Shown: piece after piece, positions 68 through 1,910 of the stretch
Numbering within the stretch: the stretch's first letter is position 1
Layout of the letters: each line of letters opens with the position of its first letter
Source: Opitutales bacterium
GTDB taxonomy: Bacteria > Verrucomicrobiota > Verrucomicrobiia > Opitutales > UBA9783
DNA: 11,837 bases
Assembly (NCBI GenBank): GCA_024407725.1
Contig: JAKSVZ010000020.1
Coordinates: 1-11,837 of the forward strand
Reading direction: 5' to 3'
Made by a program: the position numbers and the translations under genes
The notes under the pieces: model-generated
The model's database searches: none
What the model was told of the DNA's origin: nothing
The model's input: only the letters and a program-made list of their open reading frames with translations

Positions 68-1144
68 TTATTTTGATTGGGGGTGGGCGCTCAAAGTTGC
101 CTCGTTATCATCGTTCGCCAAAAAGCACTCGTAGATAAAATTGCTTAAAGTAATGCCTGCATTCAAGATCAATTCCGCATGATGTCTCTTTAATACCGAT
201 AACTGATTCTTGCGTTCGTTTTCATCATCTACTGAAGGATGTACACTAACATTGCACCTCATGCCCCATATGGGGCGAATAAAATTGCTTATTTTAAGAG
301 GTTCTTCTAAAGCATTCACTAAGCGATGAATCTCATTGTTACGTTCAGAATCCTCATGGAACTTTTGATTCTTAAACTCTTCGAGTAGATTCCCTAAACT
401 TTTCAAATTCGGATTTTGAATAGCATCTATTGCCTTCATTTTACCATCATTATCTTTCAGGGTTAAGTGATGTTTTTTAAACACAGATTTCAACTGTACC
501 TCCAAAGCTTTGCCTATCAAACCAGGAATCTGATCATAAAAAGCACTTTCTAGAGCTTGCTCTGCCTGATCAATAACTGTCCTTACCCTAGTTTTCTCAG
601 GTATATTTACCTTAACGTGATTTACCTTAACCAATCTAGTAAGCCTGAATTCGCAATCAGATATTTCATAATCAAACCTTAATTTATGTTTTTCTAACAA
701 CCTATTAATTTGGTTAATTAAAATCGTACAAATCGCACGATATTCTTCTGGGGTAAAATAATACGTATTTATTGTGACCATCTCATTCCTCAATCCATGC
801 CGGAACTGCTCATAGCGAAAAAAATCACTGAACAGTTCTAGAACATCGTCTTCTTGATCCGCATGCCTAATAACATGCTCGATCAAGTCATTATAAAACG
901 CTACCAAATCCTTCTTTTCGTCCATTACCTCCCAACCCCTTGGTAGAAATACGATATTAGATGAATGGTTCTCATTCTTATGCTTATACTCGGGGTAATA
1001 ATTGCGCCTAAAGTAATCTATGTCTATAGGCCGGAACGATACAACATTACCACTCGGATTTGGTACAAAATTATTCCCAACAAAGAAATTGGCAAATCGA
1101 GGATTTAACAGTTTTTTATATTTATCGCGCCAAGACAATCCCAT
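68..1144 (-). CDS. Accessory hypothetical protein with an Abi_C / AbiJ-type HEPN-like C-terminal domain (candidate abortive-infection family RNase)
   Basis: 358-aa ORF with an ATG at 1144-1142 preceded by purine-rich GGGTAGGGGA. The C-terminus has GMRCNVSVH (R296-x5-H302, nt 259-239), then about 18 aa, then KRHHAELILNAGITLSNFIYECF (nt 187-122). This resembles my remembered consensus for Pfam Abi_C: G-x-hRN..s..H, a short linker, then rHAElavNlAg.l..fl. A second canonical RNxxxH motif is present (R268-N-N-E-I-H273, nt 343-326). The N-terminal 200 aa are not recognisable. The CDS itself is likely; the family call is from memory only. Confidence 0.5.
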   Translation of the reverse strand: MGLSWRDKYKKLLNPRFANFFVGNNFVPNPSGNVVSFRPIDIDYFRRNYYPEYKHKNENHSSNIVFLPRGWEVMDEKKDLVAFYNDLIEHVIRHADQEDDVLELFSDFFRYEQFRHGLRNEMVTINTYYFTPEEYRAICTILINQINRLLEKHKLRFDYEISDCEFRLTRLVKVNHVKVNIPEKTRVRTVIDQAEQALESAFYDQIPGLIGKALEVQLKSVFKKHHLTLKDNDGKMKAIDAIQNPNLKSLGNLLEEFKNQKFHEDSERNNEIHRLVNALEEPLKISNFIRPIWGMRCNVSVHPSVDDENERKNQLSVLKRHHAELILNAGITLSNFIYECFLANDDNEATLSAHPQSK

Positions 1145-1171
1145 TCCCCTACCCTACTTGCTCTGTTCCAG

Positions 1172-1220
1172 AACGCAAGGTAAATCCTAGGCAAAAGGGG
1201 ATGTTTTTGATTAAAATACG
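1172..1220. repeat. Left copy of an imperfect direct repeat bracketing the module array
   Basis: AACGCAA (1172-1178), then ggtaa, then ATCCTAGGCA (1184-1193), then aaaGgggaTgTTTTTGatTaAAAtaCG. The right copy at 1842-1888 has the same 7-mer and 10-mer contiguous, with a similar tail. It contains the palindrome CCTAGG. Confidence 0.6.
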
Positions 1221-1237
1221 TGCTGACTGTGCAGCAC
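1220..1237. promoter_or_regulatory. Small perfect inverted repeat (possible operator or hairpin) upstream of the Abi-like ORF
   Basis: GTGCTG (1220-1225), actgtg, CAGCAC (1232-1237). It lies about 80 nt upstream of the ORF start at 1144, inside the putative 5' leader. Function unknown. Confidence 0.25.
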
Positions 1238-1249
1238 ATCCTAAAAAGC

Positions 1250-1278
1250 TTGACTTATACCCTAAATAACAGTATAAG
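1250..1278 (+). promoter_or_regulatory. Sigma70/66-like promoter candidate, module 1, + strand
   Basis: TTGACT (1250-1255), 17 nt, TATAAG (1273-1278), with an upstream AAAAA tract. The predicted start near 1285 coincides with the left arm of the module 1 inverted repeat. Confidence 0.4.
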
Positions 1279-1315
1279 TTCCTTGATGGGAGAAACCGGA
1301 TGCGGTAATATTATT

Positions 1316-1344
1316 TTTTTAACATAATCCTCTCCCAACGTCAA
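1316..1344 (-). promoter_or_regulatory. Promoter candidate on the - strand in module 1; the nearest candidate promoter for the Abi-like ORF
   Basis: On the - strand: TTGACG (rc of 1339-1344), 17 nt, TAAAAA (rc of 1316-1321). It would give a leader of about 165 nt to the ATG at 1144. The -10 is weak. Confidence 0.25.
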
Positions 1345-1418
1345 GCCAAATCAGATTTTTCGCATTTACCCCCTACTAAATACAATGGATTTAGCGTACA
1401 GGAAACGCCATCATTAAT

Positions 1419-1439
1419 CTCTGTGATTGAATCCCAGAG
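1419..1439. other. Short hairpin in the spacer between modules 1 and 2
   Basis: CTCTG (1419-1423), an 11-nt loop, CAGAG (1435-1439). The loop and 3' arm carry GAATCCCA (1429-1436), the same octamer as in the 1589-1622 hairpin. Confidence 0.3.
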
Positions 1440-1461
1440 CCGGATAGATTCGATAAAAAGC

Positions 1462-1490
1462 TTGACAATAGCAGTGTTTTTCAGGAAAAT
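1462..1490 (+). promoter_or_regulatory. Promoter-like hexamers, module 2, + strand
   Basis: TTGACA (1462-1467), 17 nt, GAAAAT (1485-1490), with an A-tract upstream. The -35 box is also part of the left inverted arm, so the promoter reading competes with the structural reading. Confidence 0.3.
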
Positions 1491-1529
1491 GGCTTATTGC
1501 ATTCTGAGCAACAGTATTCAGACAAGCTT

Positions 1530-1557
1530 ATTGTACAAAGAGCGGCGCGCTAGTCAA
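1530..1557 (-). promoter_or_regulatory. Promoter-like hexamers, module 2, - strand
   Basis: On the - strand: TTGACT (rc of 1552-1557), 16 nt, TACAAT (rc of 1530-1535). It faces the + strand candidate, so the two predicted starts would overlap by about 25 nt. Confidence 0.35.
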
Positions 1558-1588
1558 GTTAAATTTGGTATTTCCACACTCACTCCTT

Positions 1589-1622
1589 CATGATGGGTTC
1601 AACAAACCTGAATCCCATCATG
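1589..1622. other. Perfect 9-bp stem hairpin in the spacer between modules 2 and 3
   Basis: CATGATGGG (1589-1597), a 16-nt loop, CCCATCATG (1614-1622). No T-run follows, so it is not a canonical intrinsic terminator. Confidence 0.5.
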
Positions 1623-1628
1623 CACCCC

Positions 1629-1657
1629 TTGCGATTTAAGAACAGAAGCGGCATAAT
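1629..1657 (+). promoter_or_regulatory. Promoter candidate upstream of module 3, + strand
   Basis: TTGCGA (1629-1634), 17 nt, CATAAT (1652-1657). The predicted start near 1664 would place both arms of module 3 inside a single transcript. Confidence 0.35.
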
Positions 1658-1682
1658 GCGCTCCATGCACTCAACAAAAAAC

Positions 1683-1711
1683 TTGACAAAGGTATTACTT
1701 TTGGGGAAAAT
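1683..1711 (+). promoter_or_regulatory. Promoter-like hexamers, module 3, + strand
   Basis: TTGACA (1683-1688), 17 nt, GAAAAT (1706-1711), with an AAAAAA tract upstream. The caveat is the same as for module 2. Confidence 0.3.
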
Positions 1712-1749
1712 AGCTTATTGCAATCTAAGCAGTAATATTCTAACAATTT

Positions 1750-1778
1750 ATTGTAGCCAGTTCTTGTACCTTAGTCAA
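1750..1778 (-). promoter_or_regulatory. Promoter-like hexamers, module 3, - strand
   Basis: On the - strand: TTGACT (rc of 1773-1778), 17 nt, TACAAT (rc of 1750-1755). These are the best hexamers and spacing in the region. Confidence 0.4.
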
Positions 1779-1786
1779 GTTAAAAG

Positions 1787-1813
1787 CCCACGCACAGCCG
1801 CGGGTTATTTTTT
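1787..1813 (+). terminator. Candidate intrinsic terminator after module 3
   Basis: CCCaCG (1787-1792) pairs with CGcGGG (1799-1804) as 5 GC pairs around one mismatch, with a 6-nt loop, followed by TTATTTTTT (1805-1813). Confidence 0.4.
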
Positions 1814-1841
1814 GCCCATTTTTCACTCATTTGTGAACCAA

Positions 1842-1888
1842 AACGCAAATCCTAGGCAGTAAAAGCGTTATTTTGTTGATCGAAAACG
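1842..1888. repeat. Right copy of the imperfect direct repeat bracketing the module array
   Basis: AACGCAA (1842-1848), ATCCTAGGCA (1849-1858), then gtAAAaGcgtTaTTTTGttgATcgAAAaCG. It matches the left copy at 1172-1220. Confidence 0.6.
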
Positions 1889-1904
1889 CGCGCGGTTTAT
1901 TAAT
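1876..1904 (+). promoter_or_regulatory. Candidate uppP promoter
   Basis: TTGATC (1876-1881), 17 nt, ATTAAT (1899-1904). The predicted start falls at or near the ATG at 1911. That implies either a leaderless message or a true start further downstream at the GTG codons at 1975/1978. Confidence 0.25.
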
Positions 1905-1910
1905 ACTTGG

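What the first reader, a model, noticed from the sequence alone, without database searches (positions are those of the whole stretch)
68..1910. Hypothesis: the Abi/HEPN-like gene and the upstream structured-repeat array form one protein-plus-RNA unit
All three modules carry - strand promoter-like hexamers pointing toward the Abi-like ORF: TTGACG-17-TAAAAA, TTGACT-16-TACAAT and TTGACT-17-TACAAT. The nearest would give the ORF a leader of about 165 nt containing the palindrome at 1220-1237.

A toxin-like RNase gene preceded by tandem repeated non-coding units recalls type III toxin-antitoxin loci (ToxIN, CptIN, TenpIN). In those, a repeat RNA neutralises the protein. There are clear differences here: the units are about 6 times longer, each has its own promoter-like elements, and each has long inverted arms. 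If the two parts are functionally linked, this would be an undescribed architecture. The link is inferred from adjacency and orientation only.
Basis: inference. Interest (0 to 1): 0.7.

Follow-up and report, generated by a model that had tools for sequence, protein, structure and literature searches.

The report
AbiJ-like gene behind face-to-face promoter cassettes
A highly diverged abortive-infection (AbiJ-type HEPN RNase) gene in a rumen bacterium lies behind three copies of a ~96-bp DNA cassette that carries two promoters pointing at each other; this looks like a transcriptional control region shared by a small family of such genes, not a ToxI-like repeat-RNA antitoxin.

Summary
The ORF at 68-1144(-) is an AbiJ-like HEPN gene (PADLOC E=1.5e-11).

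The "array" is not a set of structured RNA repeats:
- Only m2 and m3 are clearly alike. m1 shares mainly geometry and promoter boxes with them.
- Folding energies match shuffled sequence, and Rfam and TRF find nothing.
- Each unit is a 95-96-nt cassette, TTGAC-N85-86-GTCAA, with a second promoter-like site on the plus strand facing the first.
- Between m2 and m3 all 24 hexamer positions are identical, while the spacers are about half identical.

Sister rumen contigs show the locus is a strain-variable islet between a prepilin-peptidase gene and uppP.
- It holds distant AbiJ-like paralogues of 342, 358 and 301 aa.
- Such cassettes were found only in this islet: 1-3 per array, two subtypes. Contigs without the islet have none.
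- The 358-aa ORF is promoterless and sits inside a leader that, in sister contigs, joins the m1 cassette to the 342-aa gene.

Gene and cassettes are therefore linked, most likely as a gene and its convergent-promoter control region. A type III-like RNA antitoxin remains possible (about 0.1). This is a new variant of a known kind, of moderate interest.

The parts
1..67 (-). Remnant of the leader that in sister contigs lies next to the proximal promoter of the 342-aa AbiJ-like gene. It implies that another Abi gene lies beyond the contig end.
   Evidence: Window 10-28 aligns to the sister leader (AATAAACAGATACCCTTGC vs AAGAAATAGATACCCTTGC). z=5.3-6.9 against three of four sister leaders, and z=1.2 against L006.
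68..1144 (-). AbiJ-like gene, 358 aa: an N-terminal domain plus a C-terminal HEPN domain with R296-x5-H302. It has no promoter of its own.
   Evidence: PADLOC AbiJ E=1.5e-11 and Pfam Abi_C E=0.016. It is 21-24% identical to the 342- and 301-aa paralogues of sister contigs, including the N-terminus. There are no other relatives in 1.84e9 representatives. No promoter-like site lies between 1145 and 1309 on the minus strand.
1145..1217 (-). 5' leader of the ORF. GGGG/AGGGG lies before the ATG. Positions 1178-1201 (GGTAAATCCTAGGCAAAAGGGGA) are homologous to the sister 342-gene leader. Positions 1168-1223 are repeated at 1838-1891.
   Evidence: z=4.2-5.3 against L019, L013 and L006; 2.6 against L010.
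1218..1239 (-). Hairpin H1 (GTGCTG-actgtg-CAGCAC). It is terminator-like on the minus strand, with a weak T-run.
   Evidence: Terminator scan. It is conserved in sister contigs, with one compensatory G-C to A-T change. It also has strand-inconsistent mismatches: G.U in L010b and C.A in L013/L019.
1250..1344 (.). Cassette m1 (95 nt): plus-strand promoter-like TTGACT-17-TATAAG (1250-1278) facing minus-strand TTGACG-17-TAAAAA (1344-1316). Palindrome H2 is CTTATAC(1254-1260)/GTATAAG(1272-1278).
   Evidence: nhmmer with a profile of the sister cassettes gives E=4e-27 over 1211-1379. Identity to sister copies is 72-76%. H2 has a compensatory change in L024_A: CTTTTACC/GGTAAAAG.
1462..1557 (.). Cassette m2 (96 nt): plus-strand TTGACA-17-GAAAAT (1462-1490) facing minus-strand TTGACT-16-TACAAT (1557-1530).
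   Evidence: m2 vs m3: all 24 hexamer positions are identical, the spacers are about 50% identical, and there is no codon-phase bias.
1683..1778 (.). Cassette m3 (96 nt): plus-strand TTGACA-17-GAAAAT (1683-1711) facing minus-strand TTGACT-17-TACAAT (1778-1750). Its terminal inverted arms match at 15 of 20 positions.
1645..1664 (-). Terminator-like hairpin about 80-100 nt downstream of the m3 minus-strand promoter.
   Evidence: The T-run is weak and no comparative support was found.
1787..1804 (.). G+C-rich hairpin followed by TTATTTTTT on the plus strand. It could be an attenuator or terminator between the m3 plus-strand promoter and uppP.
   Evidence: The scan scores it on the minus strand; on the plus strand the stem has one A.C mismatch.
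1838..1891 (+). Direct repeat of 1168-1223 (CCARAACGCA..AATCCTAGGCA..AAAG). Its right part is ancestral uppP upstream DNA.
   Evidence: (z=5.8).
1862..1910 (+). Ancestral uppP leader, retained from the islet-free state. The promoter-like site of the islet-free locus lies on the other side of the islet.
   Evidence: Alignment to the empty site in L004/L017. The promoter-like TTGAAG-17-GATAAT in L017 at 6791-6819 lies left of the insertion point.
1911..2795 (+). uppP (undecaprenyl-diphosphatase), the conserved right flank of the islet.
   Evidence: Pfam BacA E=2e-54.

Best explanation
The ORF is a real but extremely diverged AbiJ-family gene: an N-terminal domain plus a HEPN RNase domain. It lies in a strain-variable defence islet between a prepilin-peptidase gene and uppP in a rumen Opitutales lineage.

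The 766-nt 'array' is three copies of a ~96-bp cassette whose ends are inverted (G/A)CTTGAC boxes. Each box is the -35 element of a sigma-70-like promoter with a TA-rich -10 element exactly 16-17 nt inside. Each cassette therefore holds two promoters firing at each other. The predicted start sites would make the two transcripts overlap by about 25 nt. The two RNA-polymerase footprints would also collide.

The 358-aa ORF has no promoter of its own. It sits inside a pre-existing leader, so the leftward promoter of m1 (perhaps also of m2 and m3) must transcribe it. That gives a 161-165-nt leader carrying hairpins H2 and H1.

The rightward promoters would oppose that transcription by occlusion, collision and a short 5' antisense RNA. 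This would keep a potentially toxic RNase low. The same promoters would also supply rightward transcription toward uppP, because the islet has separated uppP from the promoter-like site of the islet-free locus.

Shown: the family assignment, the cassette anatomy and its conservation pattern, its exclusive association with the AbiJ-like islet, and the position of the ORF inside the leader.

Inferred: that the promoter-like sites fire, the interference or antisense effect, and the toxicity of the protein.
For: - Protein family.
- Face-to-face geometry: it is 95/96/96 nt in the window and 95-98 nt in nine cassettes from seven other contigs. It occurs nowhere else in about 82 kb.
- Promoter form: all 12 cassettes show TTGAC(N), a 16-17-nt spacer and a (T/G)A-rich hexamer on both strands.
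- Promoter signature: m2 vs m3 have 24/24 identical hexamer positions against about 50% in the spacers. The m1-type alignment has invariant -35/-10 blocks and a hypervariable centre with indels.
- Enrichment: four of the five best promoter-like sites of the window lie here.
- No proximal minus-strand promoter for the 358 ORF, whereas the sister 342-aa gene has its own (TTGACA-17-TAAAAT ending 7 nt before the ATG).
- The ORF is flanked on both sides by pieces of the sister leader, in colinear order.
- The promoter-like site of the islet-free locus lies beyond the islet.
- Islet-free contigs lack cassettes.
- The region is non-coding: no conserved small ORF and no codon-phase bias.
Against: - No expression data exist. 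All promoters are consensus matches.
- The -10 elements of the m1-type cassettes lack the conserved final T on one or both strands (TATAAG, TAAAAA, TAAAAG), so those promoters may be weak or inactive.
- The predicted antisense overlap lies about 160 nt upstream of the start codon, not over the ribosome-binding site.
- In sister contigs the 342-aa gene has its own proximal promoter about 200 nt downstream of the cassette. There the cassette cannot act as a cis-antisense regulator of the main mRNA.
- The short plus-strand terminator is not consistently present.
- Palindrome H2 shows a compensatory change. That fits an RNA hairpin or a protein operator at least as well as a plain promoter.
- All comparative data come from one narrow lineage, so co-occurrence is largely inherited and not independent.
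Confidence: 0.45

Rival explanations
1. Type III-like toxin-antitoxin, as the first reader proposed and by analogy with AbiF/RCd22 and AbiV/abiV2. Each cassette's Abi-sense promoter would make a ~95-nt non-coding RNA ending at a hairpin. That RNA would bind and neutralise the HEPN protein. Read-through past hairpin H1 would give the toxin mRNA.
For: - The geometry resembles RCd22-abiF: a start about 165 nt upstream of the ATG, a hairpin about 70-90 nt downstream of the start, then the gene (PMC12373285).
- HEPN toxins with RNA antitoxins exist: AbiF and AbiV.
- The mechanism of AbiJ is unknown (PMC13064643).
- H2 and H1 lie in the Abi-sense transcript, and each shows one compensatory change.
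- Cassettes are confined to the AbiJ-like islet, and the order of m1-type then m2-type recurs in L024.
Against: - There are no short near-identical tandem repeats.
- There is no abiF or ToxI-type Rfam hit.
- Folding is not better than shuffles and the alifold energy is -3.6 kcal/mol.
- The transcribed centre is the least conserved part, while the hexamers of the opposing promoter are invariant.
- m1- and m2-type RNAs share no significant sequence.
- The same m1 cassette serves proteins that are only 21% identical.
- Copy number varies from 1 to 3.
- AbiJ-type proteins carry an N-terminal domain that has been proposed to act as their own sensor or antitoxin (PMC3710099).
Confidence: 0.12
2. No regulatory coupling. 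The cassettes are ordinary promoter-bearing intergenic DNA. Unequal or illegitimate recombination in a recombination-prone islet has duplicated it. The leftward promoters serve the Abi genes and the rightward ones serve uppP. The face-to-face layout and the multiple copies have no function of their own.
For: - L006 carries a recent 289-nt tandem duplication, 93-100% identical.
- L010b is a cassette copy patched into a thiD-thiE deletion through an 11-nt microhomology.
- The cassettes are less conserved (72-76%) than the backbone (86-90%).
- The shared A-tract plus CTTGAC box is a generic promoter consensus in this organism.
Against: - The 95-98-nt face-to-face spacing is kept in two cassette subtypes that have otherwise diverged beyond recognition.
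- Both promoters keep their hexamers while the spacers decay.
- Simple divergent genes would be served by back-to-back promoters, not face-to-face ones.
Confidence: 0.25
3. Independent small-RNA genes, or a type I toxin-antitoxin array. The cassettes would encode trans-acting sRNAs or small toxic peptides with antisense partners, unrelated to the Abi protein.
For: - Convergent promoters with 5'-overlapping transcripts are typical of type I loci. Such loci are often tandemly duplicated (general knowledge).
- Hairpins lie about 80-100 nt downstream of each minus-strand promoter.
Against: - No small ORF is conserved between m2 and m3, or between m1-type copies.
- There is no Rfam family.
- The cassettes were seen only in the AbiJ-like islet.
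Confidence: 0.08
4. Miniature mobile element. The ~96-bp units with 10-15-nt terminal inverted repeats would be MITE-like insertions.
For: - The terminal inverted arms are AGCTTGACTT(A) ... (T)AAGTCAAGCT.
- One copy lies at a second site, L010b.
Against: - No target-site duplication was seen.
- The L010b junctions are microhomologies inside and outside the cassette, not its ends.
- There are no dispersed copies in about 82 kb, and no hits in the genome, metagenome, viral, plasmid or phage collections.
- The inverted arms are explained by two -35 boxes.
Confidence: 0.04

Closest known systems
AbiJ family of abortive-infection HEPN proteins (Lactococcus AbiJ; Anantharaman et al. 2013, PMC3710099)
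   Same: Both have a C-terminal HEPN domain with an Rx4-6H motif preceded by a variable N-terminal domain. Both are single polypeptides located in a variable defence locus. The window ORF matches the PADLOC AbiJ model at E=1.5e-11, and the sister 342-aa protein at E=1.8e-20.
   Different: The window protein is an orphan at the sequence level, with no relative in 1.84e9 representatives. Pfam Abi_C is below its threshold. No AbiJ-NTD model matches. No phenotype is known. A conserved upstream promoter-cassette array has not been reported for AbiJ, to my knowledge and in the papers read.
HEPN type III toxin-antitoxin systems: AbiF/RCd22 (PMC12373285) and AbiV/abiV2 (bioRxiv 10.1101/2024.05.05.592566)
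   Same: Both have a HEPN Abi protein preceded on the same strand by a promoter, about 100 nt of non-coding sequence ending in a hairpin, and then the gene. The start lies about 165 nt from the ATG here, against 168 nt for RCd22.
   Different: The protein is not of the Abi_2/AbiD/F or AbiV family. No abiF motif is present. No conserved RNA fold was found. Each unit also carries an opposing promoter. The RNA body is the least conserved part.
ToxIN / CptIN / TenpIN type III toxin-antitoxin loci (general knowledge)
   Same: Both have repeated non-coding DNA and a hairpin upstream of a putative RNase toxin gene in a defence context.
   Different: Units here are about six times longer and at most 75% alike, each with its own promoters on both strands. 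The toxin fold is different. Copy number is not conserved.
Face-to-face promoter / cis-antisense control modules: IS10 pIN/pOUT, hok/sok, coliphage 186 pR/pL, pCF10 prgQ/prgX (general knowledge; modelling in PMC4519249)
   Same: A promoter for a potentially harmful gene is opposed by a promoter on the other strand. The transcripts overlap at their 5' ends by about 25 nt here, against 36 nt in IS10. Conservation falls on the promoters and not on the RNA sequence.
   Different: The overlap lies about 160 nt upstream of the start codon, not over the ribosome-binding site. The module occurs in arrays of 1-3 copies and in two subtypes. The gene product is a 358-aa HEPN protein. Nothing here has been shown experimentally.

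Membership tests
Type III TA (ToxIN/CptIN/TenpIN) | Tandem array of short (about 34-45 nt), near-identical direct repeats immediately upstream of the toxin gene | tested here: not met
   TRF finds no tandem repeat in 1145-1910. The units are 212-221 nt. m2/m3 are 75% identical over 76 nt, and m1 is not significantly similar to m3.
Type III TA (ToxIN/CptIN/TenpIN) | One promoter upstream of the repeats and a terminator between the repeats and the toxin gene | tested here: inconclusive
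   Hairpin 1218-1239 lies between m1 and the ORF, but its T-run is weak. Every unit has its own promoter-like sites on both strands.
Type III TA (ToxIN/CptIN/TenpIN) | Toxin of the ToxN/AbiQ, CptN or TenpN endoribonuclease families | tested here: not met
   PADLOC returns only AbiJ. Pfam returns only a weak Abi_C match.
Type III TA (ToxIN/CptIN/TenpIN) | The toxin cleaves the repeat RNA into units that bind and inhibit it | not testable with these tools
   This needs Northern blots or RNA-seq, and co-expression.
HEPN type III TA (AbiF/RCd22, AbiV/abiV2) | HEPN toxin with an Rx4-6H motif | tested here: met
   MRCNVSVH (R-x5-H) aligns with the SLRNHAGDAH motif of the 342-aa paralogue. PADLOC AbiJ E=1.5e-11.
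HEPN type III TA (AbiF/RCd22, AbiV/abiV2) | Protein belongs to the Abi_2/AbiD/F or AbiV family | tested here: not met
   No Pfam Abi_2 hit even at E<=10. No PADLOC AbiF, AbiD or AbiV hit at E<=1.
HEPN type III TA (AbiF/RCd22, AbiV/abiV2) | Conserved upstream RNA motif (abiF motif, RF03085) or a defined antitoxin hairpin | tested here: not met
   No Rfam family at E<=1 on either strand. Folding z-scores are not significant. Alifold gives -3.6 kcal/mol.
HEPN type III TA (AbiF/RCd22, AbiV/abiV2) | Same-strand ncRNA with its own promoter and a terminator, co-transcribed with the toxin by read-through | tested here: inconclusive
   The promoter-like site, hairpin and distances fit. No transcript data are available.
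HEPN type III TA (AbiF/RCd22, AbiV/abiV2) | The RNA binds the protein and neutralises it | not testable with these tools
   This needs an experiment.
AbiJ family | C-terminal AbiJ-type HEPN domain | tested here: met
   PADLOC AbiJ, residues 86-339 against profile positions 50-275 of 281, E=1.5e-11. The sister paralogue gives E=1.8e-20. Pfam Abi_C is below its cut-off (15.7 vs 24 bits).
AbiJ family | One of the described N-terminal domains (AbiJ-NTD1-5) | tested here: inconclusive
   No family model matches residues 1-85. The AF2 model is unusable, with pLDDT 49. The N-terminus is conserved with the 342-aa paralogue.
AbiJ family | Abortive-infection phenotype against phage | not testable with these tools
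   This needs an experiment.
Cis-antisense / face-to-face promoter control (IS10 pIN/pOUT, hok/sok type) | Two opposed promoters whose transcripts overlap at their 5' ends | tested here: met
   This is met at the level of sequence motifs only. All 12 cassettes have TTGAC(N)-16/17-TA-rich hexamers on both strands, 95-98 nt apart. The hexamers are conserved and the spacers are not.
Cis-antisense / face-to-face promoter control (IS10 pIN/pOUT, hok/sok type) | The antisense RNA covers the ribosome-binding site, the start codon or a coupled leader ORF of the target | tested here: not met
   The predicted overlap (about 1285-1309) lies about 140-165 nt upstream of the ATG at 1144. The only leader ORF (1239-1105) is not conserved in sister contigs.
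Type I TA | Small hydrophobic toxic peptide encoded in one of the transcripts | tested here: not met
   No small ORF is conserved between the copies, and there is no codon-phase bias.
MITE-like element | Terminal inverted repeats plus target-site duplication and dispersed copies | tested here: not met
   Inverted arms of 10-15 nt are present. No target-site duplication was seen. The L010b junctions are microhomologies. No dispersed copies were found.

The most novel reading that the evidence does not exclude
The ~95-nt Abi-sense transcripts of the cassettes (variable 5' part, hairpin H2, UCAAGCUUUUU linker, hairpin H1) are RNA antitoxins of the AbiJ-like HEPN proteins. AbiJ would then be a third HEPN lineage, after AbiF and AbiV, that works as a type III-like toxin-antitoxin system. 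Here the antitoxin genes would each have their own promoter, be stacked in diverged copies, and be opposed by an antisense promoter.
Probability: 0.12. Interest if true: 0.6.

Novelty: new variant of a known kind. Interest (0 to 1): 0.4.

Why it matters
A 2026 review states that no mechanistic information is available for AbiJ (PMC13064643). How cells keep single-protein HEPN RNases harmless is an open question.

This locus gives a compact natural comparison set. It holds three paralogous AbiJ-like genes that are only about 21-29% identical. With them come one to three copies of a conserved ~96-bp face-to-face promoter cassette, and sister contigs without the islet are available.

If the cassettes control expression by convergent transcription, this would be a simple cis-regulatory way to hold a toxic defence gene in check. 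It could also be transferred to other genes. If instead the cassette RNA neutralises the protein, AbiJ would join AbiF and AbiV as a HEPN type III toxin-antitoxin system. Either outcome can be tested with a few constructs.

The practical lesson for genome scanning is that repeats upstream of an Abi gene are not automatically RNA antitoxins. Here the positions under constraint are promoter hexamers, not the RNA body.

Tried and rejected
- Rfam at E<=1 over the whole window gave nothing. tRNA/tmRNA search gave nothing.
- TRF found no tandem repeat in the region.
- The ORF was searched by word index against 5.8e9 proteins and by exhaustive phmmer against 1.84e9 representatives. Only the ORF itself was found. 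'Do homologues always travel with an array' therefore could not be asked of close homologues. The question was answered through positional paralogues found via the neighbouring uppP gene.
- A pattern scan of GTDB species representatives with the m2/m3 core gave one chance hit inside a Bacillota coding region. The source MAG is not in that collection.
- A pattern scan of JGI metagenomes with the m1 promoter/H2 core gave one unrelated promoter upstream of a ROK-family gene.
- Viral contigs gave no hit for either pattern.
- blastn of the array against plasmids and phages gave no match.
- The AlphaFold2 model of the ORF, from a 2-sequence alignment, had pLDDT 49 and pTM 0.39. It was not used and no fold search was run.
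- A profile search of the PDB with the four paralogues gave no hit.
- I tested whether m2/m3 or the spacers are decayed Abi coding sequence. tblastn found nothing below E of about 1.
- I tested whether the cassettes encode small proteins. There is no conserved ORF and no third-position bias.
- I tested whether the whole of m3 descends from the ancestral uppP intergenic region. Only 1838/1862-1958 aligns convincingly. The rest of the gapped alignment is unconvincing.
- I tested whether a short plus-strand RNA with a conserved terminator exists in m1-type cassettes. The hairpin plus T-run is good in L006a and L010a but poor in L013, L019 and L010b, so this claim was dropped.

Full report
**1. 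What is in the sequence**

The window is an 11.8-kb contig of an NCBI MAG labelled 'Opitutales bacterium'.

ORF 68-1144(-) encodes 358 aa.
- Pfam gives nothing at its thresholds. There is only a weak Abi_C match (E=0.016, residues 316-338).
- The PADLOC AbiJ model matches residues 86-339 at E=1.5e-11.
- Aligned with paralogues found later, the protein has an R-x5-H HEPN motif (MRCNVSVH against SLRNHAGDAH). Its N-terminus is also homologous (MGLSWRDKY.. against MQGLNFEDRF..). This supports the 358-aa start rather than the 285-aa NCBI call.
- The protein is otherwise an orphan. A word-index search of 5.8e9 proteins and an exhaustive phmmer search of 1.84e9 representatives return only itself.

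The ORF and the 766-nt spacer are 33-41% G+C, against about 50% for the housekeeping genes to the right. uppP starts at 1911.

**2. The 'array'**

The repeat structure is weaker than claimed.
- m2 (1450-1563) and m3 (1671-1784) are clearly related: 76 nt at 75% identity without gaps, z=21.
- m1 shares only TAAAAAGCTTGAC with m2 (z=4). It is not significantly similar to m3.
- TRF sees no tandem repeat.
- A similar box, AAAAAGCTGGAC, recurs in another intergenic region at 4358-4394. The A-tract plus CTTGAC box also recurs in an unrelated metagenome promoter. It is a generic UP-element plus -35 consensus, not proof of homology.
- No RNA family matches.
- Six candidate transcripts fold no better than shuffled sequence.
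- No small ORF is shared between units. The 19 m2/m3 mismatches show no third-position bias.

What unites the three units is geometry. Each has TTGAC on the plus strand and GTCAA 95-96 nt further on (1250-1344, 1462-1557, 1683-1778). Each TTGAC(N) box is followed 16-17 nt inward by a TA-rich hexamer.
- Plus strand: TATAAG, GAAAAT, GAAAAT.
- Minus strand: TAAAAA, TACAAT, TACAAT.

Every unit is therefore a pair of sigma-70-like promoters facing each other. The predicted starts would make the transcripts overlap by about 25 nt.

Between m2 and m3, all 24 hexamer positions are identical. The two spacers are only about half identical. This is the pattern expected of functional promoters on both strands.

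Four of the five best promoter-like sites of the entire window are these.

**3. Related sequences**

The neighbouring UppP protein led to sister contigs from cattle-rumen metagenomes. They are 86-90% identical to the window in the backbone.

Islet-free state:
- L004/L005 and L017/L018 have a prepilin-peptidase (A24) gene, 229-242 nt of spacer, then uppP.
- They have no Abi gene and no cassette.

Islet-bearing contigs carry, at the same place:
- a 342-aa Abi_C/AbiJ-like gene on the minus strand (PADLOC AbiJ E=1.8e-20);
- in L010/L011, also a 301-aa paralogue;
- upstream of the 342-aa gene, one face-to-face cassette in L010a, L013, L019, L020, L021 and L022, or two in L006 (a recent 289-nt duplication).

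All of these cassettes have 97-98-nt spacing.

A profile of these sister cassettes finds window m1 at E=4e-27 (1211-1379). It does not find m2 or m3.

In about 82 kb of this lineage's DNA, TTGAC..GTCAA pairs 60-140 nt apart occur only in these cassettes.

The window protein is 21-24% identical to the 342- and 301-aa proteins.

In the m1-type alignment, the invariant blocks are the two promoters. The centre, which both strands would transcribe, is hypervariable and has indels.
- Hairpin H1 (1218-1239) is conserved with one compensatory change. It also has strand-inconsistent mismatches.
- Palindrome H2 (CTTATAC/GTATAAG) lies between the plus-strand -35 and -10 boxes. It shows one compensatory change in the most distant copy: CTTTTACC/GGTAAAAG in L024_A.

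**4. How the ORF relates to the cassettes**

Both flanks of the ORF are colinear pieces of the leader that, in sister contigs, runs from H1 and the cassette to the 342-aa gene.
- Left flank: window 10-28. z=5.3-6.9 against three of the four sister leaders and 1.2 against L006.
- Right flank: window 1178-1201. z=4.2-5.3 against three sister leaders and 2.6 against L010.

The 358-aa ORF, with about 20 nt of its own 5' flank, therefore sits inside a pre-existing leader. It has no promoter-like site of its own.

The sister 342-aa gene has a near-consensus TTGACA-17-TAAAAT promoter ending 7 nt before its ATG.

Whether this is an insertion in the window lineage or a deletion in the sisters, two things follow:
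- the m1-358 adjacency is secondary;
- the same cassette serves proteins that are only 21% identical.

A Logan contig from the same sequencing run as L001 (L024) carries the 342-aa gene. Upstream of it lie an m1-type cassette (69% identical to m1) and then an m2-type cassette. The latter is 58-62% identical to m2/m3, against 50 +/- 2% for shuffles. The contig ends inside it.

The exact 342-aa protein of L024 is also an NCBI MAG protein, MCQ2956055.1. Its accession is close to those of the window's proteins, MCQ2956253/4. It is probably the same genome, but that is an inference.

The order 'AbiJ-like gene, m1-type cassette, m2-type cassette' therefore recurs. This supports the view that genes and cassettes form one evolutionary unit.

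One cassette copy (L010b) lies next to no Abi gene.
- It replaces 1.16 kb of thiD-thiE.
- Its left junction is an 11-nt microhomology (AATGCGTACTG).
- It is therefore an illegitimate-recombination patch, not a transposition.

**5. uppP**

In islet-free contigs, the only plus-strand promoter-like site upstream of uppP (TTGAAG-17-GATAAT) lies to the left of the islet's insertion point.

The window keeps only about 49 nt of the ancestral uppP leader, 1862-1910.

The rightward cassette promoters are thus the nearest candidates to transcribe uppP. The closest is m3 at 1683-1711. It is followed by a hairpin and T-run at 1787-1812. This would put them under selection independently of the Abi gene.

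**6. Interpretation**

Best-supported reading, confidence about 0.45. The array is a stack of face-to-face promoter cassettes that belong to a strain-variable AbiJ-like defence islet.
- The leftward promoter of m1 drives the promoterless 358-aa ORF through a 161-165-nt leader containing H2 and H1.
- The rightward promoters oppose it by occlusion, collision and a short 5' antisense RNA. They also feed uppP.

Shown: the anatomy, its conservation pattern and its association with the islet. Inferred: firing of the promoters, interference between them, and toxicity of the protein.

The logic is that of known face-to-face or cis-antisense modules such as IS10 pIN/pOUT, hok/sok, phage 186 pR/pL and prgQ/prgX (general knowledge; PMC4519249). 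The overlap, however, lies far from the ribosome-binding site.

The type III reading is not excluded, at about 0.12.
- HEPN toxins with upstream RNA antitoxins are now known: AbiF/RCd22 and AbiV.
- AbiJ's mechanism is unknown.
- The distances resemble the RCd22-abiF arrangement.
- Against it: the RNA body is the least conserved part, the two cassette subtypes share no RNA sequence, no fold is supported, and the defining features of ToxIN-type loci are not met.

A purely neutral origin, duplicated promoter DNA, gets about 0.25. The conserved 95-98-nt geometry across otherwise unrecognisable copies argues against it.

**7. Verdict**

This is a new variant of a known kind. Interest is 0.4.

Noticed in passing
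window 6210-11751: This 5.5-kb block holds HisRS, a hexapeptide-repeat transferase, a type II/III secretion-type secretin and a CesT-family chaperone. It is absent at this position in sister contigs L006, L010 and L013, where window 6209 and 11752 are adjacent. It is either a strain-specific insertion or rearrangement, or an assembly join.
   Followed up: no
L010 6915-7098: A 185-nt copy of the m1-type cassette replaces 1.16 kb of thiD and the 3' part of thiE just downstream of uppP. The junctions are microhomologies: AATGCGTACTG on the left and about 4 nt on the right.
   Followed up: yes
L006 4988-5031; L010 4395-4440: The 342-aa AbiJ-like gene of sister contigs has a near-consensus promoter whose -10 box ends 7 nt before the ATG, which suggests a possibly leaderless mRNA. 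In L010 a perfect 16-nt palindrome, CCCCTGCATGCAGGGG, is centred on the start codon. In L006 the palindrome is imperfect (TTCCTGCATGCAGGGG).
   Followed up: partly
L010 5768-5778 and 4769-5674: A run of about 10 G lies upstream of the 301-aa Abi_C-like gene. That gene lacks the N-terminal ~80 residues of its paralogues. This could be a frameshifted or phase-variable gene. In L006, L013 and L019 only decayed remnants of this gene remain.
   Followed up: partly
L010 614-2403: A cytosine-methylase gene and Eco47II-like restriction-endonuclease gene fragments lie between sucD and the prepilin-peptidase gene in L010 but not in L006. This is a second variable defence spot next to the Abi islet.
   Followed up: no
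window 925-1144: NCBI annotates the ORF from Met74 (285 aa, MCQ2956253.1). N-terminal similarity to the 342-aa paralogue supports the longer 358-aa reading frame starting at 1144.
   Followed up: yes
window 1168-1223 and 1838-1891: This is a direct repeat (CCARAACGCA..AATCCTAGGCA..AAAG, z=5.8) bracketing the three cassettes. Its right copy is partly ancestral uppP upstream DNA. A related AATCCTAGC..AAAGGGGAT element occurs in the sister 342-gene leader. It may mark recombination sites of the islet. It remains unexplained.
   Followed up: partly
window 8356-10796: A MAG labelled Opitutales, from cattle-rumen samples, carries a secretin gene with secretion-system domains and a CesT-type chaperone gene. 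This may hint at a host-associated lifestyle.
   Followed up: no
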